Of a stretch of 64,000 nucleotides of DNA, positions 43,076 through 47,233 are shown piece after piece. The notes below the pieces were generated by a model. The model was not told the DNA's origin. It saw only the letters and a program-made list of their open reading frames with translations, and did no database searches. Numbering within the stretch: position 1 is the first letter of the stretch; each line of letters begins with the position of its first letter. The position numbers and the translations under genes are program-made. This stretch comes from an uncultured Chloroflexia bacterium (GTDB lineage Bacteria > Chloroflexota > Limnocylindria > Limnocylindrales > CSP1-4), in assembly GCA_963746075.1 (NCBI GenBank), contig CAVUZY010000001.1:26046-90045 (forward strand). Direction: 5' to 3'.

Positions 43076-43930
43076 TCACCCGAACAGGTCGAACTCGCGG
43101 GGCATGATCGCGTCGCCGATCGAGCCTTCGCCGAGGAGCGGTCGAGCCCCGCGAACGACCGCGACCGGCCGCCCGGCGGACTTGCCCAGGGCCAGCTCGG
43201 CGGCCGACGCGATCTCGTCGGCCGAGGCGCGGATCGTCGACTTCATCACCCGGCCATCGGCATCGGGCGTGCCGCGGAGGTCCTCGATCGGGAGGAGCCC
43301 GGAGACGCCGATCGCGACGTCGGTGATGCCCCAGCGCCACGGTCGTCCGAACGAGTCCGAGACGATCACCGGGACATCGACGCCGAACCGTGCCCGGACC
43401 GCGGTCCGGATGGCGTCCGCCGACGCGTCCGGGTCGTGGGGGAGGAGCGTCACGATGTGGCCACTGGCGGGCCCGACGTTCGAGGCGTCGACGCCGCCAT
43501 TGGCGCAGATGAAGCCGTGCTCGGTCTCGGTGATGATCACGCCGCGCTCCATCCGCACGACCCGCGTTGCCTCGCGAAGCACGACCTCGACCTGGCGCGG
43601 ATCGCGATCCCAGCGCTCGGCGAAGGCGACCGCCTCCGGGCGCGGCTCGATCGCCTCGAGATCCACGACCGCGCCCTCGGCCTTCGAGACGACCTTCTGG
43701 GTGACGACGAGGACGTCGTCCGAGCGCAGCGGCAGGACCCCGGCCGTCGCCTCGATCGCGTCGCCGATCAGTCCCGCGAGATCGTCACCAGCCGCGACCT
43801 CGGGGATTCCCACGAGAGCGATCGCCTCGACCCGGCCGTCGTCAGCCGAGGGACCATCGGCAGCTTCTGGCTGCGATGCCTCCGCGCCGGGTGGGCGGGC
43901 CGGCGCTCCGGCGGGGATGTCAGCCGACAT
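43076..43930 (-). CDS. cofE: Coenzyme F420-0:L-glutamate ligase
   Basis: QKVVSKAEG, CANGGVDASN, DPDASA, DSFGRPWR.G, ADEIASAAEL..GK. Confidence 0.93.
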   Translation of the reverse strand: MSADIPAGAPARPPGAEASQPEAADGPSADDGRVEAIALVGIPEVAAGDDLAGLIGDAIEATAGVLPLRSDDVLVVTQKVVSKAEGAVVDLEAIEPRPEAVAFAERWDRDPRQVEVVLREATRVVRMERGVIITETEHGFICANGGVDASNVGPASGHIVTLLPHDPDASADAIRTAVRARFGVDVPVIVSDSFGRPWRWGITDVAIGVSGLLPIEDLRGTPDADGRVMKSTIRASADEIASAAELALGKSAGRPVAVVRGARPLLGEGSIGDAIMPREFDLFG

Positions 43931-44600
43931 CCACCGGCTCCGCCGGCGCGCTGGAGCGCAGGCTCGCATCGGCCAGGAGCAGGTCGTCGGGCGTGTCGAG
44001 ATCGAGCGACAGCGGTCCGCTGAGCTCCACCAGGTGGGCGTCGACGGCGGCTGCCGCGGCGCGGTGGGCGAAGGCGCTGTCGCCGCCGAAGCACAGGTCG
44101 ATCGCATCGGGCGGTGCGATCAGGAGGGCGTTCGTGCCCCGGCCGTGGCGGTCCGGCACCAGGGCGACCATCGGTCGGTCGGCCGCCCGGAGCGTCGCCG
44201 CGACGGCATCGATCGCGGCGGCCGTCACCTCCGGCAGGTCGATCGGCAGGATCAGGATCGCGTCGGCGCCGGCGGCCAGCGCCTCCCCCCGCGCGGCGGT
44301 CAGCCCGTGGTTGAGGCCGCGGTCGCGCTGCAGGATCGGGCGCGCGCCGAGCTCGGCCGCCATCGCGCGGATCGTGTCGTCGGGCGTGATGACGAAGACG
44401 TCATCGACGAGATCCGCCGCGACGGCAGCCGCGATCGTCGTCCGTGCCAGGCGCAGCGTGAGGTCGAGCCGCTCCTCGGCGTCGAGGACCGCGCCGAGAC
44501 GCGACTTCGCGCCATCGAGCGAGCCGACGGGAATGATCGCGATGAGTCGCGGCCGTTCGGCTCGGTCGCCGGCCTTCTGGTCGGGGGCGACGCTGGGCAT
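43920..44600 (-). CDS. cofC: 2-phospho-L-lactate/PEP guanylyltransferase
   Basis: AKSRL, GLN, DLP, PDR.G.GTNAL, FG..S...H, DLDTPDDL. Confidence 0.92.
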   Translation of the reverse strand: MPSVAPDQKAGDRAERPRLIAIIPVGSLDGAKSRLGAVLDAEERLDLTLRLARTTIAAAVAADLVDDVFVITPDDTIRAMAAELGARPILQRDRGLNHGLTAARGEALAAGADAILILPIDLPEVTAAAIDAVAATLRAADRPMVALVPDRHGRGTNALLIAPPDAIDLCFGGDSAFAHRAAAAAVDAHLVELSGPLSLDLDTPDDLLLADASLRSSAPAEPVDVG

Positions 44601-44620
44601 GGGCGAGATCGTAGGCGAGA

Positions 44621-45241
44621 TCAGGCGAACCCGAGAGCGGCCAGGATCGCGACGCTGCCGAACACGAGCAGCACCGCGCCGGAGATCCTGTTGATCCACA
44701 CGAGCACGCCGGCCGTGATCCGCTCGCGCAGCAGGCCGACGACCGCGGTCAGGACGACCCACCACAGGCTCGAGCCCAGGAACACGCCGAGCGTCAGCAC
44801 CGCGGCGTCGAGCCCGCCACCGCCGGCCAGCCCGAGCCCGGCGAAGATCCCGCCGAACGACAGGATCGTCATCGGGTTGGTCATCGTCAGGCCGTAGATC
44901 GACAGGAAGGCCGCCGTCAGGCCGGGCCGGTCGTCCGGGTCGGCCGCGATCGTGGCGGGTCGCGCCCGGATCGTCCGGATCGCGAGCCAGATCAGGAACG
45001 CCCCGCCGACGAGGGCGAGCGCCGTCCGGGCGCCGACGAGGATCGCCGTGATGGCCGTCAGGCCGAAGGCCGCGATCGCACCGTACGAGGCGTCGGCCGC
45101 GGCCACGCCGAGACCGGACACGAGCCCGTACACCCGGCCGTGGGCGAGCGTCCGGCGCATCGTGAGGAGGCTGATCGGGCCGACCGCCGCCGCGACGGTG
45201 AACCCGACGACGAGACCGCGGGCAAGGAATGTGGGATCCAT
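44621..45241 (-). CDS. LysE family translocator
   Basis: AAAVGPI, G..SGLG.A.AD, LT..NPMTI, GS.LWW, INRISG. Confidence 0.92.
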   Translation of the reverse strand: MDPTFLARGLVVGFTVAAAVGPISLLTMRRTLAHGRVYGLVSGLGVAAADASYGAIAAFGLTAITAILVGARTALALVGGAFLIWLAIRTIRARPATIAADPDDRPGLTAAFLSIYGLTMTNPMTILSFGGIFAGLGLAGGGGLDAAVLTLGVFLGSSLWWVVLTAVVGLLRERITAGVLVWINRISGAVLLVFGSVAILAALGFA

Positions 45242-45292
45242 GGTGCTGCTCCGTGGCTGGTGCCAACGGCCGGCATGGGGCTCCGTGACAGC

Positions 45293-45320
45293 GAAACGCC
45301 CCCGGCACGGCCGAGGGCGG
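45293..45320 (-). terminator. Attenuator terminator hairpin in lysE leader
   Basis: Minus strand CGCCCTCGGC-CGT-GCCGGGGGCG-TTTC (10-bp stem, one G-U). Confidence 0.7.
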
Positions 45321-45352
45321 TGGTGATCGATGGCACCCGATCGGGCGCGTCG

Positions 45353-45427
45353 TCAGGCCAGGCCGACCCTCGTCGAGGGCTGCTGCTGGCTCCGGGCGGC
45401 GCGGACGGCGATGACGGGACGATGCAT
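45353..45427 (-). CDS. Putative leaderless leader peptide MHRPVIAVRAARSQQQPSTRVGLA
   Basis: ATG 7 nt after -10 box; CAG-CAG-CAG immediately before a hairpin; stop 33 nt before terminator. Confidence 0.65.
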   Translation of the reverse strand: MHRPVIAVRAARSQQQPSTRVGLA

Positions 45428-45434
45428 CGCGCGC

Positions 45435-45463
45435 ATCGTGCGCGACGGGCGATACGCTGTCAA
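45435..45463 (-). promoter_or_regulatory. Sigma70-type promoter of lysE leader
   Basis: TTGACA-N17-CACGAT on minus strand. Confidence 0.75.
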
Positions 45464-45485
45464 CGCACGCTTCAGGAGCCAGCCG

Positions 45486-46232
45486 ATGCACGAGCCATCC
45501 AGCATCCCGGCGGAGCACGCCGCCGCGCGAGCGCCCCAGGCCCCACCGCCCGCGCACGGCGGGACGGGTCTCGACGATCCGCGCGCGCTGCAGATCCTCT
45601 CGACCGAGCACTGGAGCCTGCTTGCGACCCGGTCCCTGAGCTGGGGCGAGTCGTTCAGTCGGGCCGGGCTCTTCCTGTCCGTGGTGTCGGCCACGGCCGT
45701 CGCCCTGGCGCTCGTCGGGCAGGCCACCGACTTCGGGGATCGATTCGTCGCGTTCGCATTGGTGATGCTGCCGATCGACCTGTTCGTCGGCCTGGCGACG
45801 TTCACCAGGCTCGACGAGGTGAACGCGGAGGACACGGTGTGGGTGAACGGGATGAACCGGATCCGGCACGCGTACCTCGAGATCAACCCGAGCCTCGCCC
45901 CGTACTTCATCACCGGCTCGACCGATGATGTCGCCGGCCTCCAGCGCACGATCGGCATGCATCGACCCGGGAGCCCGGTGGCGCATTGGATCGTGACGAT
46001 GCCCGGGATGATCGCGGTGATCAACGGCGTGCTTGCGGGGCTGATCGTCGGCCTGGCGATCAACACGGTCGTCCGGATGGCGATGGAGGGGGCGATCGTC
46101 GCCGGGGTCGTCGCCGGGGTCGCGGTCTCGGTGATCCTCGCGGTTCGCTCGCGCAGCTCCTATGCCTGGCTCCTCGGCGCGCAGCGGCCGAACTTCCCGT
46201 CCGACCCGGAGGCGCCCGGCCAGGCGCGCTAG
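45486..46232 (+). CDS. Hypothetical 4-TM membrane protein
   Basis: AGGAG SD; ILSTEHWSLLATRS...R..LFL, two TM hairpins, MNRIRHAY. Confidence 0.8.
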   Translation: MHEPSSIPAEHAAARAPQAPPPAHGGTGLDDPRALQILSTEHWSLLATRSLSWGESFSRAGLFLSVVSATAVALALVGQATDFGDRFVAFALVMLPIDLFVGLATFTRLDEVNAEDTVWVNGMNRIRHAYLEINPSLAPYFITGSTDDVAGLQRTIGMHRPGSPVAHWIVTMPGMIAVINGVLAGLIVGLAINTVVRMAMEGAIVAGVVAGVAVSVILAVRSRSSYAWLLGAQRPNFPSDPEAPGQAR

Positions 46233-47233
46233 TCGACGGCCGCCAGGACCTCGCGGGCGAGCCGGGCGCGTGAGGCGTCGCCGGTCATGATCGTGTCGGT
46301 CACGATCGGGCGGATGCCGAGGGCCTCGACCGCGGCCGCGTGGGCCGCGTCGACGGTGTCCAGAACGAACGTGTCGATGAGCCCGGCGTAGCCGCGCACC
46401 ACGCCGAGCGCGCTCGACTCGTGGCCGAGTGAGGCGAGCATCCGGTCGGCCGGTCCTTTCAGTGCCTTGCCGCCGATGATCCCGCTGACCCCGACGATCC
46501 GCGCCCCGCGTGCCCGGGCGGCCGCGAGGAGGTCGCGCATGCCGGGCAGCGCGAGGATCGGCCCGACCGACACGATCGGGTTCGAGGGGGCGATGACGAC
46601 GACCTCGGCGGCCTCGACCGCGGCGATCACCTCCGGGGTTGGACGGGCAGCGTCGATGCCGGCGAAGCGGACCTCGCGGACCTCGGGCGCCTGGCGGAGC
46701 CGGACGAAGTAGTCCTGGAAGTCGAGCCAGCCGTCGTCGGTCCGGACCTGGGTCCGGACGGGCTCGTCGGACATGGGCAGGATCGTGGCCGCGAGCTCGA
46801 GCGATCGCTGGAGGCCGGCCAGCACATCGGTCAGGCGCTCGCCGCGACGAAGGCGGTCGGTTCGGACGATATGGGTGGCGAGGTCCAGGTCGCCGAGGCG
46901 GAACCAGCTCTCCTCGCCATACCGCTCCAGCGCGCCCATCGTCGTCCAGCTGTCGCCGGCCAGCCCCCAGCCGAGCTCCGGGTTCTCGATGCCGGCCAGG
47001 GTGTACAGGACGGTGTCGTGATCCGGGCAGACGAGCAGGCCGTGCCGCTCGGTGTCGTCGGCGGTGTTGACGACGACCGTCAGGCGGTCGCCGACGACGG
47101 CCTGGAGCCCCTCGGCGAGCTTCGCCCCACCGACGCCGCCGGCGAGCTCGACGACACGCGGCCGACCGGCGCCGGAGCCGTCCGCGGCCGAGCCGTCCGC
47201 GGCCGAGCCGTCAGCGGCCGAGCCGTCAGCCAC
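46229..47233 (-). CDS. cofD: 2-phospho-L-lactate transferase
   Basis: LAGGVGGAKL, VNTADD, CPD.DT..YTLAG, WFRLGD.DLATH, PSNP.VS, KGPA. Confidence 0.95.
   Translation of the reverse strand: MADGSAADGSAADGSAADGSGAGRPRVVELAGGVGGAKLAEGLQAVVGDRLTVVVNTADDTERHGLLVCPDHDTVLYTLAGIENPELGWGLAGDSWTTMGALERYGEESWFRLGDLDLATHIVRTDRLRRGERLTDVLAGLQRSLELAATILPMSDEPVRTQVRTDDGWLDFQDYFVRLRQAPEVREVRFAGIDAARPTPEVIAAVEAAEVVVIAPSNPIVSVGPILALPGMRDLLAAARARGARIVGVSGIIGGKALKGPADRMLASLGHESSALGVVRGYAGLIDTFVLDTVDAAHAAAVEALGIRPIVTDTIMTGDASRARLAREVLAAVD
47175..47230. repeat. 15-bp tandem repeat (~3.7 copies) encoding ADGSA at CofD N-terminus
   Basis: GAGCCGTC(C/A)GCGGCC units. Confidence 0.9.

What the first reader, a model, noticed from the sequence alone, without database searches (positions are those of the whole stretch)
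45241..45463. Leaderless Gln-Gln-Gln leader-peptide attenuator controlling a LysE exporter
Seen on the minus strand, in order: TTGACA-N17-CACGAT promoter; ATG 7 nt later (leaderless start); 24-aa ORF MHRPVIAVRAARSQQQPSTRVGLA with CAG-CAG-CAG; right after the Gln codons segment 1 GCCCTC pairs with segment 2 GAGGGT (45366-45380); segment 2 CGAGGG(T)CGG can instead pair with segment 3 CCGCCCTCG; segment 3 pairs with segment 4 to give a 10-bp terminator + TTTC (45293-45320); then GGAG and the lysE start. This is the mutually exclusive 1:2/2:3/3:4 geometry established for trp/his attenuators, and leaderless sORF attenuators are established for cysteine in mycobacteria. Inference: a ribosome stalled at QQQ (low Gln-tRNA, a Gln analogue, or a QQQP arrest) masks segment 1 and turns lysE on. 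I know of no described glutamine-codon attenuator on a LysE gene.
Basis: partly seen in the sequence, partly recalled or inferred. Interest (0 to 1): 0.8.

Follow-up and report, generated by a model that had tools for sequence, protein, structure and literature searches.

The report
Glutamine-codon leader attenuator before LysE exporter
A tiny conserved upstream mini-gene with a run of glutamine codons, followed by switchable RNA hairpins, most likely turns a LysE-type amino-acid exporter on when ribosomes stall: a textbook kind of switch, here with a new signal, a new target and a new host, uncultured soil Chloroflexota.

Summary
The window alone is weak evidence: fold z-score -0.46, and the consensus scans found 0 promoters and 0 terminators.

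Comparison settles it. I collected 86 distinct copies with a readable sORF, plus 7 diverged ones from other genera. All come from uncultured Chloroflexota whose records are titled Limnocylindria or Limnocylindrales, and every copy checked sits upstream of a LysE-family gene.

- **sORF:** a start codon lies 5-8 nt after a TTGACA-type promoter and is in frame with a conserved TGA in 79 of 81 blind calls. Lengths are 20-26 codons, always differing by multiples of three. There are no in-frame stops in 973 codons.
- **Peptide:** it is otherwise unconserved, except the three codons next to hairpin 1. These are QQQ in 51 of 86 and hold at least two Gln/Asn in 81 of 86.
- **Folding:** 80 of 87 fold as 1:2 plus terminator. 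With segment 1 masked, 87 of 87 form 2:3.
- **tRNA charging:** these genomes show GatB but no GlnRS or AsnRS above cut-off.

Still inferred: the start site, termination itself (the T-run is weak or absent in 27 of 87), the glutamine trigger and the exporter's substrate. This is a new variant of ribosome-mediated attenuation.

The parts
45458..45463 (-). -35 hexamer TTGACA
   Evidence: TTGAC is kept in 77 of the 81 promoter calls (the other four read TGGACT, TTGCCA, TTGCGA and one miscall).
45435..45440 (-). -10-like hexamer CACGAT (NANNNT type), 17 nt after the -35
   Evidence: A at position 2 and T at position 6 were required by my regular expression. The tool's own scanner does not call this site.
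45353..45427 (-). Leaderless-type sORF of 24 codons plus the TGA stop (45353-45355)
   Evidence: In frame with the conserved TGA in 79 of 81 blind calls. 0 stops in 973 in-frame codons, against 18 and 4 in 887 codons of each other frame.
45380..45388 (-). Three Gln codons CAG CAG CAG, the presumed control codons, abutting segment 1
   Evidence: the triplet is QQQ in 51 of 86, has two Q in 25, one Q in 8 and none in 2. Q makes up 10 of 1681 residues elsewhere in the peptides.
45375..45390 (-). Segment 1: 5' strand of the outer helix (GCCAG, 45390-45386) and of hairpin 1 (GCCCTC, 45380-45375)
45357..45372 (-). Segment 2: CGAGGGTCGG (45372-45363) pairs with segment 1 or with segment 3. CTGGC (45361-45357) closes the outer helix.
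   Evidence: 1:2 in 82 of 87 free folds; 2:3 in 87 of 87 masked, truncated folds..
45333..45348 (-). Hairpin 2 (GCGCCC GATC GGGTGC) just after the stop codon. It is enclosed by 2:3 in the ON fold.
   Evidence: 4 of its 6 pairs show changes on both sides in the model-fitted alignment.
45311..45320 (-). Segment 3, CCGCCCTCGG: 5' arm of the terminator and partner of segment 2
45293..45305 (-). Segment 4, CCGGGGGCG (45305-45297), plus the short T-tract TTTC (45296-45293)
   Evidence: 60 of 87 copies have a T-run of at least 3 within 9 nt of the stem. The window has only TTT.
45249..45252 (-). Shine-Dalgarno GGAG of lysE
   Evidence: Conserved as GGAG or GGAGA in the alignment.
44621..45241 (-). 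lysE: LysE/RhtB-type translocator, 206 aa
   Evidence: PF01810, E 8.1e-24. Best NCBIfam match is TIGR00949, 60.8 bits against a cut-off of 183.95. No solved relative by sequence.
43920..44600 (-). cofC/fbiD-like gene starting 18 nt after the lysE stop. Probably co-transcribed, in this genus only.
   Evidence: found downstream of lysE in 27 of 30 loci. The family name is my reading of the sequence and of its neighbours CofD and CofE; the gene itself was not scanned.
43076..44107 (-). cofE (F420-0:gamma-glutamyl ligase), next gene on the same strand
   Evidence: PF01996, E 1.5e-69.

Best explanation
This is a ribosome-mediated transcription attenuator whose leader peptide is translated from a leaderless mRNA. 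Its control codons are glutamine codons, with asparagine codons as occasional substitutes.

**Proposed mechanism (inferred steps)**
- Transcription starts at or within 1-2 nt of the sORF start codon, and a ribosome translates the sORF.
- OFF: if the ribosome reaches the TGA it covers segment 2. If no ribosome is present, segment 1 holds segment 2. In both cases segment 3 is free to pair with segment 4, and the GC-rich hairpin plus short U-run ends the transcript before lysE.
- ON: if the ribosome stalls on the Gln codons, which lie directly 5' of segment 1, it masks segment 1. Segment 2 then pairs with segment 3 as soon as segment 3 is made, with hairpin 2 sitting in the loop. The terminator cannot form, and lysE is transcribed. 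In this genus cofC and cofE follow on the same transcript.
- Signal: these organisms appear to make Gln-tRNA and Asn-tRNA by GatCAB transamidation. The stall would therefore report shortage of amide nitrogen (glutamine).

**Shown here:** the sequence anatomy, its conservation, the reading frame and the folding energetics.

**Inferred:** the start site, the termination, the stall and its trigger, and what the exporter carries.
For: 1. **The sORF is conserved as an ORF, not as a peptide.** A promoter plus ATG/GTG was chosen without regard to frame. It is in frame with the conserved TGA in 79 of 81 copies. One of the two misses (L169) was a wrong promoter pick. All 7 diverged copies from other genera are also in frame. 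The distance from start codon to TGA is 60, 63, 66, 69, 72, 75 or 78 nt, so all indels are multiples of three. There are 0 stops in 973 in-frame codons, against 18 and 4 in 887 codons of each other frame.
2. **Only the control triplet is conserved at the amino-acid level.** It is QQQ in 51 of 86 and holds at least two Q or N in 81 of 86. Q makes up 10 of 1681 residues elsewhere. The run persists where LysE identity falls to 47-58%: QQP, QQW, QQQ, QQQ, NQQR, QQQ. One copy before a LysE paralogue only 26% identical has an N/Q-rich stretch, NRSNRNPQ. CAG-to-CAA synonymous changes occur (L006, L084).
3. **Geometry.** The Gln run always abuts the 5' arm of hairpin 1. AGG of segment 2 is always followed by 4 codons and then TGA.
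4. **Folding of 87 copies.** The free full leader forms 1:2 plus 3:4 in 80. RNA ending at segment 3 with the 5' part masked forms 2:3 in 87; unmasked, it forms 1:2 in 65. Mean duplex energies are -12.1 (1:2), -15.5 (2:3) and -17.1 (3:4) kcal/mol.
5. **Pairing.** In the MAFFT alignment 84.1% of cells pair, against 36-56% for slid controls. In the model-fitted alignment 87.5% pair, and 13 pairs show changes on both sides against 7.3 +/- 1.4 in shuffles (0 of 500).
6. **The element goes with lysE.** All 12 true covariance-model hits in 151 family genomes precede LysE-family genes. In genera g5, g8 and g24 no cofC, cofD or cofE lies within about 2.5-3 kb.
7. **Leaderless mRNAs are plausible in this genome.** It has 23 sites of TTGACN-N17-18-NANNNT-N6-7-RTG. 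Of 10 long ORFs tested, 8 have a Pfam domain above cut-off that starts at profile position 1-2 within residues 3-14.
8. **tRNA charging.** GatB is over its cut-off in 19 of 21 genomes, including this one. GlnRS and AsnRS are over cut-off in 0 of 21.
Against: - There is no RNA evidence at all: no RNA run holds the stretch.
- On its own the window's leader is not more structured than shuffles (z -0.46). The scanner calls neither a promoter nor a terminator.
- The window's T-tract is only TTT. 27 of 87 copies have a T-run shorter than 3, among them a whole clade of 20 with a conserved GTCGTGATTC tail instead.
- On the unbiased MAFFT alignment, covariation is no better than shuffles (score 0.120 against 0.119; 160 of 500 shuffles reach it). 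The positive result comes from an alignment fitted to the structure.
- The 2:3 helix has no pair with changes on both sides. For 87 of the 94 sequences its core was fixed by my search pattern.
- With the complete leader, the terminator remains the minimum-energy fold in 68 of 87 copies even when segment 1 is masked. The switch must therefore be kinetic.
- In the truncated unmasked fold, 22 of 87 copies, including the window's, prefer 2:3 over 1:2.
- The Gln run is not invariant: 10 of 86 copies have one Q or none. Part of its conservation may be structural, because the first CAG pairs with CTG and covaries to CGG/CCG, and G19-C40 and C20-G39 also pair.
- L045 is out of frame by one base.
- Inducing an exporter when an amino acid is scarce is the reverse of the usual logic for exporters.
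Confidence: 0.55

Rival explanations
1. The leader-peptide attenuator is the same, but the stall is not caused by glutamine shortage. The ribosome would pause at or near the Gln run because of a translation inhibitor or another metabolite. Antibiotic-sensing leader peptides that induce efflux pumps work this way. LysE would then be a drug or antimetabolite exporter.
For: - All the evidence for the sORF and the alternative hairpins fits this reading equally well.
- The regulated gene is an exporter, the usual target of drug-sensing leaders. Abstracts on bmrCD (PMC4191407) and mef/mel (PMC4335068) appeared in the listings.
- Scarcity-induced export is physiologically odd.
Against: - Drug- or metabolite-dependent arrest normally needs a conserved nascent peptide. 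Here the 9-14 residues before the Gln run are unconserved, and the residues after it change non-conservatively (V/D, L/S/P, G/S/C).
- What is conserved is the identity of the codons. Asn replaces Gln in several copies (NQN, NPN, the N-rich L222), which fits sensing of tRNA charging by a GatCAB-dependent cell.
Confidence: 0.2
2. The sORF and hairpins act after transcription rather than by termination. The 3:4 hairpin would stabilise or process the RNA, or influence lysE translation at a distance, as in the translational attenuation by mycobacterial polycysteine sORFs.
For: - The T-tract is weak or absent in 27 of 87 copies, and clade B has a conserved non-T tail.
- The only leaderless sORF attenuators I found in print act on ribosome-binding-site access (abstract of bioRxiv 10.1101/834739).
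Against: - The lysE Shine-Dalgarno lies 10-60 nt beyond the 3:4 hairpin and is not part of it.
- 60 of 87 copies have a T-run of at least 3 right after a 9-11 bp GC stem.
- The weak covariance-model hits at the ends of other genes show that hairpins of this family look the same: a GC stem plus TTTTC or TTCTTC.
Confidence: 0.1
3. The element is a riboswitch or a protein-binding leader RNA. The conserved block from the CAG run to hairpin 2 would be an aptamer or a binding site, and the ORF would be incidental.
For: - Strong nucleotide conservation of the unpaired CAGCAG and of the CTGACG linker within the genus.
- An expression platform with an alternative hairpin is also what a riboswitch has.
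Against: - A start codon sits at the predicted transcript 5' end. The frame is kept through 3n indels in 79 of 81 copies plus 7 of 7, and there are no in-frame stops.
- Across genera, only TGA is kept in the linker (TGACG, TGATG, TGAGC, TGACC).
- No Rfam family matches.
- There is no multi-helix junction with conserved unpaired bases beyond the codons.
Confidence: 0.07
4. A chance arrangement of GC-rich hairpins with no function.
For: Single-sequence statistics are unremarkable.
Against: The architecture is conserved in 89 distinct copies plus 7 diverged ones, across at least six genera, always before LysE-family genes.
Confidence: 0.01

Closest known systems
Classical ribosome-mediated transcription attenuators of amino-acid biosynthetic operons (trp, his, leu, thr, pheA, ilv leaders of Proteobacteria). 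The details are recalled; the principle is as in the abstract of PMC1183508 listed.
   Same: - A short leader ORF with a run of control codons at the edge of segment 1.
- A stop codon placed so that a terminating ribosome covers segment 2.
- Mutually exclusive 1:2, 2:3 and 3:4 pairings.
- A GC hairpin plus U-run ahead of the regulated gene.
   Different: - The control codons are Gln (with Asn); I found no described case.
- The regulated gene is an exporter, not the biosynthetic pathway of the sensed amino acid.
- The leader ORF appears leaderless, with no Shine-Dalgarno.
- An extra hairpin sits between segments 2 and 3.
- The host is Chloroflexota.
- The window matches no Rfam family, and so none of Rfam's leader families (a recalled category), up to E 10.
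Polycysteine leaderless sORF attenuators of mycobacteria (Canestrari et al., bioRxiv 10.1101/834739; outline and abstract read)
   Same: A leaderless sORF as the first cistron. A run of codons for one amino acid acts as the sensor. A stalled ribosome remodels downstream RNA structure.
   Different: [quoted passage not shown]
- Here the downstream structure looks like a terminator, the codons are Gln/Asn, and the target is a LysE exporter.
Antibiotic-sensing leader-peptide attenuators that induce efflux genes (bmrCD of Bacillus subtilis, PMC4191407; mef/mel, PMC4335068; abstracts seen in the listings)
   Same: Ribosome-mediated transcription attenuation controlling an export system.
   Different: Those leaders sense a drug-bound ribosome. 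Here no peptide is conserved apart from the Gln run, and the codon identity (Q, sometimes N) is what is kept.
Metabolite-sensing arrest peptides such as TnaC (abstract of PMC8429421 seen; SpeFL recalled)
   Same: A leader peptide that couples a small-molecule signal to expression of downstream genes through a stalled ribosome.
   Different: Those depend on a conserved nascent-chain sequence and stall at or near the stop codon. Here the peptide around the stall site is unconserved, and a ribosome held at the stop codon would favour termination.
Protein-regulated LysE-family exporters (LysG-LysE of Corynebacterium, ArgP-ArgO of E. coli; recalled, no call)
   Same: The regulated gene belongs to the same transporter superfamily (PF01810).
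   Different: Those are induced by a LysR-type activator that senses excess substrate. No such regulator gene is adjacent here: the divergent gene is a membrane protein with no Pfam or NCBIfam match. Control appears to be by the leader.

Membership tests
Leader-peptide (ribosome-mediated) transcription attenuator | A short translated ORF in the 5' leader of the regulated gene | tested here: met
   By comparison only. In frame in 79 of 81 blind calls plus 7 of 7 diverged copies. Lengths of 20-26 codons that differ by 3n. 0 stops in 973 in-frame codons against 22 in 1774 codons of the other frames. Translation itself has not been observed.
Leader-peptide (ribosome-mediated) transcription attenuator | A cluster of control codons for one amino acid at the 5' edge of segment 1 | tested here: met
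   QQQ in 51 of 86, two Q in 25, one Q in 8, none in 2. Q is 10 of 1681 residues elsewhere. The run always abuts hairpin 1. It is kept in five further genera.
Leader-peptide (ribosome-mediated) transcription attenuator | Mutually exclusive 1:2, 2:3 and 3:4 pairings | tested here: met
   80 of 87 free folds give 1:2 plus 3:4; 87 of 87 masked, truncated folds give 2:3. Complementarity holds in 84-91% of cells, against 36-56% for slid controls. Covariation is present for 1:2, hairpin 2 and 3:4 only in the model-fitted alignment, and absent for 2:3.
Leader-peptide (ribosome-mediated) transcription attenuator | An intrinsic terminator (GC stem plus U-tract) between the leader ORF and the gene | tested here: inconclusive
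   The 9-11 bp GC stem is always present. The T-run is at least 3 in 60 of 87 copies. The window has TTT only. 20 clade-B copies have no T-run. The tool's scanner finds none in the window.
Leader-peptide (ribosome-mediated) transcription attenuator | The sensed amino acid is the product of the regulated operon | tested here: not met
   The regulated gene is a LysE-type translocator. In this genus F420 genes follow it. No glutamine biosynthesis gene is present.
Leader-peptide (ribosome-mediated) transcription attenuator | Read-through rises when the cognate aminoacyl-tRNA is limiting | not testable with these tools
   This needs reporter or in vitro assays. No RNA run holds the locus.
Leaderless polycysteine sORF attenuators (mycobacteria) | The sORF starts at the transcript 5' end | tested here: inconclusive
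   The start codon lies 5-8 nt after a -10-like hexamer (9 nt in L192) in all copies with a promoter call. Leaderless genes are plausible in this genome. No start site has been mapped.
Leaderless polycysteine sORF attenuators (mycobacteria) | A polycysteine tract and sequestration of the downstream ribosome-binding site | tested here: not met
   There is no Cys run. The lysE Shine-Dalgarno lies outside the 3:4 hairpin.
Riboswitch | A ligand-binding aptamer with conserved junction bases and covarying helices, independent of translation | tested here: not met
   No Rfam match. The conserved unpaired bases are codons of a frame-conserved ORF, and only the stop codon is kept in the linker across genera.
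Nascent-peptide arrest sensors (TnaC/ErmCL type) | A conserved peptide sequence in the exit tunnel at the stall site | tested here: not met
   The residues before the Gln run are unconserved, and those after it vary non-conservatively.

The most novel reading that the evidence does not exclude
The leader may be an amide-nitrogen alarm. These Chloroflexota appear to make both Gln-tRNA and Asn-tRNA by GatCAB. A run of Gln/Asn codons would therefore read the cell's glutamine pool directly through tRNA transamidation. When glutamine synthesis is choked, a LysE-type exporter would be switched on to expel the offending compound. The block could come from a glutamine-synthetase inhibitor made by soil competitors, or from an overload of amino acids that feedback-inhibit the enzyme. 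That would be a first case of an export or resistance gene induced by the metabolic consequence of an antimetabolite, sensed by codon-specific ribosome stalling. It would also be a first leader-peptide attenuator outside biosynthetic operons keyed to Gln/Asn.
Probability: 0.25. Interest if true: 0.8.

Novelty: new variant of a known kind. Interest (0 to 1): 0.66.

Why it matters
- **New signal and target.** Ribosome-mediated attenuation is textbook for Trp, His, Leu, Thr, Phe and Ile/Val operons, and more recently for Cys. Five literature searches found no glutamine- or asparagine-codon leader and no leader peptide on a LysE-family exporter. Rfam has no model for it.
- **A sensor of nitrogen status.** If the reading holds, it adds a sensor for the central nitrogen metabolite that works through tRNA transamidation rather than through PII, GlnR or NtcA-type proteins or the glutamine riboswitch (these comparators are recalled).
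- **Wider reach of leaderless sORFs.** It would show leaderless regulatory sORFs at work in Chloroflexota, an abundant but uncultured soil lineage.
- **A handle on function.** It gives a testable lead on an uncharacterised LysE subfamily.
- **Built-in natural controls.** Relatives keep the same promoter fused directly to lysE without the leader (L017 and genus g15).

Tried and rejected
- **Rfam.** The scan of 44900-45800 at E up to 10 gave only 5 chance matches (E 1.8-7.5), all far below gathering scores. A scan of five related loci gave only a tRNA.
- **Consensus promoter/terminator scan.** 0 and 0.
- **RNAalifold on the first MAFFT alignment (A1).** It recovered only parts of hairpin 1 and the terminator, with a covariation term of -0.44. 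I replaced it with hand-specified structures.
- **Equilibrium folding of the complete leader with segment 1 masked.** The terminator still wins in 68 of 87. I therefore modelled the state before segment 4 is made.
- **Hairpin 2's 3' arm as an alternative antiterminator.** This would fit a stall at the stop codon. I rejected it by eye because only 4-5 bp are possible and they are not kept in copies with GGGTG or GGCG arms.
- **F420 link.** I first thought the leader might belong to the cofC-cofE genes. I rejected this because in genera g5, g8 and g24 the leader and lysE stand without any cof gene nearby.
- **Neighbours of lysE in g5.** A homocysteine S-methyltransferase and a glyoxalase-family gene. 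They gave no hint of the substrate.
- **Other Gln-run sORFs in the genome.** The scan used a stop-to-stop filter that even missed the known leader, so it is uninformative.
- **Other leaderless sORF attenuators in the genome.** A strict promoter scan found only two other short ORFs, neither with an amino-acid run.
- **Sequencing runs.** No RNA holder is listed.
- **Solved structures.** No sequence relative of the LysE protein.
- **Weak covariance-model hits.** 6 places (E 3e-4 to 8e-4) have no promoter or sORF, and no LysE match in the locus. I counted them as chance.
- **Pattern hits outside the group.** About half of the genome-contig hits, and the Microbacteriaceae hits with an 80-nt span, lie inside long ORFs of other phyla and lack the terminator arm. 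I dropped them.
- **Rows dropped before counts.** L025 (contig ends inside lysE). L114 and L132 (too little upstream sequence on the contig: one search skipped them, and their rows are mis-anchored). L045 has no in-frame start and is counted as a miss.
- **Paper supplements.** They were closed and not consulted. They could hold sORF lists bearing on the claim that no such leader is in print.
Full report
**1. What is in the window**

Read on the minus strand, the 241-nt gap between lysE (44621-45241; PF01810, E 8.1e-24) and a divergent gene for a membrane protein (start 45486) holds, in order:
- TTGACA (45463-45458), 17 nt, then CACGAT (45440-45435).
- 7 nt, then ATG (45427).
- A 24-codon ORF ending in ...RSQQQPSTRVGLA, with TGA at 45355-45353.
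- A hairpin, GCCCTC/GAGGGT, enclosed by an outer helix GCCAG/CTGGC.
- A second hairpin at 45348-45333.
- A 9-10 bp GC hairpin (45320-45297) followed by TTTC.
- GGAG and the lysE start.

Taken alone, the sequence proves nothing. The leader folds no better than dinucleotide shuffles (z -0.46; 60 of 200 shuffles fold at least as well). The consensus scanner calls no promoter and no terminator. Rfam has no match near any gathering score.

**2. Whose genome, and what context**

The LysE protein has orthologues (62-91% identity) in 32 of 36 sampled genomes of the same genus and in none of 24 genomes of a sister family. Public records with identical or near-identical leaders are titled Candidatus Limnocylindrales or Limnocylindria, Chloroflexota, or uncultured Chloroflexia MAGs. 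The host is therefore an uncultured soil Chloroflexota, not an actinobacterium.

In the window, lysE is followed after 18 nt by a cofC/fbiD-like gene and then cofE. cofD lies upstream. cofC lies downstream of lysE in 27 of 30 loci from this genus.

NCBIfam places the protein only loosely in the RhtB/LysE group: TIGR00949 scores 60.8 bits against a cut-off of 183.95. Its substrate is unknown.

**3. The leader is conserved**

Of 29 orthologous loci with 400 nt of upstream sequence, 25 carry the same architecture. The four without it are L017, L019, L027 and L028.

I scanned with a pattern built only from segment 2, the stop-codon region and segment 3. It deliberately left out the Gln codons, the promoter and the start codon.
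- It found 67 stretches in one-genome-per-species contigs and 82 in metagenome contigs.
- Together with the earlier loci these gave 174 pattern hits. 118 also carry the terminator's 3' arm, and they collapse to 89 distinct sequences.
- The remainder are matches inside long ORFs of unrelated phyla.

**4. The sORF is real as an ORF**

I located a promoter (at least 4 of 6 matches to TTGACA, 16-19 nt, NANNNT) followed within 5-8 nt by ATG or GTG, without using the frame.
- This start is in frame with the conserved TGA in 79 of 81 sequences.
- The two misses are L045, which has one extra base, and L169, where my rule picked a wrong promoter and the obvious ATG is in frame.
- Eight more sequences had no promoter call under this rule.
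- The start-to-stop distance is 63, 66, 69, 72, 75 or 78 nt. A further genus has 60 nt. Every length change has been a multiple of three.
- In the variable N-terminal part there are 0 stops in 973 in-frame codons, against 18 and 4 in 887 codons of each other frame.

The peptide itself is not conserved apart from what follows in section 5. That is the usual state of a leader peptide.

A leaderless start is plausible in this organism. Its genome has 23 sites where such a promoter abuts ATG or GTG. Of 10 long ORFs tested, 8 are Pfam-domain proteins whose domain begins at profile position 1-2 within residues 3-14. They include ArsR-type regulators, CrcB, Phd/YefM, Fur and KDPG aldolase.

**5. The glutamine codons**

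The three codons directly 5' of hairpin 1 were tallied in 86 distinct sORFs:

| Control triplet | Copies (of 86) |
|---|---|
| QQQ | 51 |
| Two Q (RQQ, QRQ, GQQ, QQR, LQQ and others) | 25 |
| One Q | 8 |
| No Q (NPN, NPR) | 2 |

- 81 of 86 have at least two Gln or Asn in the triplet.
- Gln is 10 of 1681 residues in the rest of the peptides.
- Part of this conservation is structural. The first CAG pairs with CTG of the outer helix and covaries to CGG/CCG: pair 15-42 reads AU 24, GC 10, GU 5.
- The second and third codons are only partly paired, and synonymous CAA occurs in L006 and L084.

The strongest point is depth of conservation. I fetched the upstream regions of more distant orthologues and ran a covariance model over 151 family genomes. 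This found diverged leaders in five more genera. There the peptide after the run is quite different (PARARST, PLRGPRR, SLERARSA, PSRRAGSS), but the run is kept: QQP, QQW, QQQ, QQQ, NQQR, QQQ.

One further copy precedes a LysE-family gene only 26% identical to the window's (PF01810, E 6.6e-17). Its control region is Asn-rich: NRSNRNPQ.

GlnRS and AsnRS models are over their cut-offs in 0 of 21 related genomes. GatB is over its cut-off in 19 of 21, including this one. Gln-tRNA and Asn-tRNA are therefore probably both made by transamidation with glutamine as the amide donor. That would explain why N can stand in for Q.

**6. The RNA switch**

The geometry is constant:
- The Gln run abuts the 5' arm of hairpin 1.
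- The AGG inside segment 2 is always followed by four codons and then TGA.
- By the usual ribosome footprint (recalled), a ribosome with a Gln codon in its A site would cover segment 1 but leave most of segment 2 free. A ribosome at the stop codon would cover segment 2.

Folding of 87 copies gave:

| Condition | Result |
|---|---|
| Free complete leader | 1:2 plus 3:4 in 80 |
| RNA ending at segment 3, 5' part masked | 2:3 in 87 |
| RNA ending at segment 3, unmasked | 1:2 in 65; 2:3 in 22 (the window's among them) |
| Complete leader, segment 1 masked | terminator still the minimum in 68 |

The last row means the decision must be kinetic, as in the classical systems. Mean duplex energies are -12.1 (1:2), -15.5 (2:3) and -17.1 (3:4) kcal/mol.

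Pair counts:
- On the MAFFT alignment, 84.1% of cells pair (OFF structure) and 88.5% (ON structure), against 36-56% for slid controls. Covariation is no better than shuffles for OFF (160 of 500) and marginal for ON (36 of 500).
- On the model-fitted alignment of 94 sequences, 13 pairs change on both sides against 7.3 +/- 1.4 in shuffles (0 of 500). These lie in the outer helix, hairpin 1, hairpin 2 and the terminator. That alignment leans towards the structure.
- The 2:3 helix has no compensatory change at all. Its core was fixed by my search pattern in 87 of the 94 rows.

The terminator's T-run is at least 3 in 60 of 87 copies. The window has TTT. A clade of 20 has a conserved GTCGTGATTC tail instead. 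Termination is therefore likely but not secure, least of all in that clade.

**7. What it controls**

- All 12 convincing covariance-model hits in 151 family genomes lie upstream of LysE-family genes.
- The 6 weak hits have no sORF and no LysE gene in the locus. By eye most are gene-end hairpins with a T-run, and one lies inside coding sequence.
- In genera g5, g8 and g24 the leader and lysE stand without any cof gene within about 2.5-3 kb. The F420 context is thus peculiar to the window's genus, where cofC and cofE probably ride on the same transcript.
- Natural leader-less variants exist. In L017 the same promoter abuts the lysE ATG directly. In genus g15 it is followed by a short Shine-Dalgarno leader. 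In L027 lysE follows cofD directly.
- The leader is patchy. An exact-pattern scan of 401 genomes of the class hit 7, in two genera. Of the 18 non-g1 orthologue upstream regions fetched, 5 carry it.

**8. Comparison with what is known**

- It works like the trp/his/leu class of attenuators and meets their structural criteria.
- It departs from them in four ways: the codons, the target, the apparently leaderless ORF, and the extra hairpin between segments 2 and 3.
- It shares the leaderless sORF principle with the mycobacterial polycysteine sORFs, whose abstract describes control of ribosome-binding-site access rather than termination.
- It does not look like a nascent-peptide arrest sensor, because no peptide is conserved. 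It does not look like a riboswitch, because the ORF is frame-conserved and only the stop codon is kept in the linker.
- Five full-text searches found no glutamine-codon leader and no leader peptide on a LysE-type exporter. I saw only listings and abstracts, plus passages of PMC3160421. That paper reports leaderless genes in 4 of 12 Chloroflexi genomes, at about 4.7% of genes.

**9. Verdict**

- The attenuator reading is well supported by comparison, at about 0.8 for a leader-peptide attenuator of some kind.
- The glutamine or amide trigger is the best reading of the conserved codons, but it is untested. The full statement rates about 0.55.
- The physiological logic is open: why induce an exporter when amide nitrogen is scarce? 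It is the most interesting part. One possibility is export of whatever is blocking glutamine synthesis.
- No transcript data exist for this uncultured lineage.

Noticed in passing
window 43076-47233: F420 biosynthesis genes surround the finding: cofD (46229-47233, minus strand), then a divergent unknown gene, then lysE, a cofC-like gene and cofE on the minus strand. A LysE-type transporter embedded in an F420 cluster is conserved in this genus (27 of 30 loci) but not in genera g5, g8 or g24.
   Followed up: partly
window 45486-46232 (+): The divergent 248-aa predicted membrane protein has no Pfam or NCBIfam match. It is conserved next to the leader in 18 of 30 loci. Its start lies only 23 nt from the leader's -35 hexamer.
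   Followed up: partly
L019 (directly upstream of lysE); L022, L024, L026 (upstream of the leader promoter): A perfect inverted repeat of 17-20 bp (GATGCCGTTGGTTGCAT ... ATGCAACCAACGGCATC) flanks a variable insert of 18-95 nt. Predicted folds are -54 to -78 kcal/mol, and there is no Rfam match. In L019 it takes the place of the Gln leader. It could be a long terminator of cofD, a palindromic mobile element or another RNA.
   Followed up: partly
L017, L027, L028; L181, L187, L188 (genus g15): Natural variants lack the leader. In L017 the TTGACA-N17-CACATT promoter sits 8 nt from the lysE ATG, so lysE itself is leaderless. In L027 lysE follows cofD after 9 nt. In genus g15 the same promoter type is present without the sORF. 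These are ready-made comparison cases.
   Followed up: partly
L045: This copy has one extra base between the start codon and the Gln run, which puts the start out of frame. An internal in-frame ATG four codons before the Gln run remains. It could be a sequencing error or a real variant.
   Followed up: no
L020, L023, L073, L100, L143 (and TTG in L022, L024, L026): In one clade an in-frame ATG (or TTG) lies four codons before the Gln run. In the same clade, codons 4-6 (CCGAGCC-like) are complementary to the GGCTCGG just before the stop, which would give a longer-range 5' partner for segment 2's flank.
   Followed up: no
G000 contigs C2, C4, C6, C7 (loci L202-L211): Several ArsR-type regulators, CrcB, a Phd/YefM antitoxin, Fur and KDPG aldolase start 6-7 nt after a consensus -35/-10 pair. 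This suggests routine use of leaderless mRNAs in this Chloroflexota genome.
   Followed up: partly
L032, L035, L041, L075, L082, L089: The search pattern also hits a conserved coding stretch with an 80-nt span in Microbacteriaceae (Cryobacterium, Agromyces, Frigoribacterium and others). The hit lies inside a long ORF and is unrelated to the leader.
   Followed up: no
window 45274-45284 (-): A GGAG followed by ATG lies between the terminator and lysE, in another frame. It is not conserved in the closest relative (L002), so it is probably noise.
   Followed up: partly
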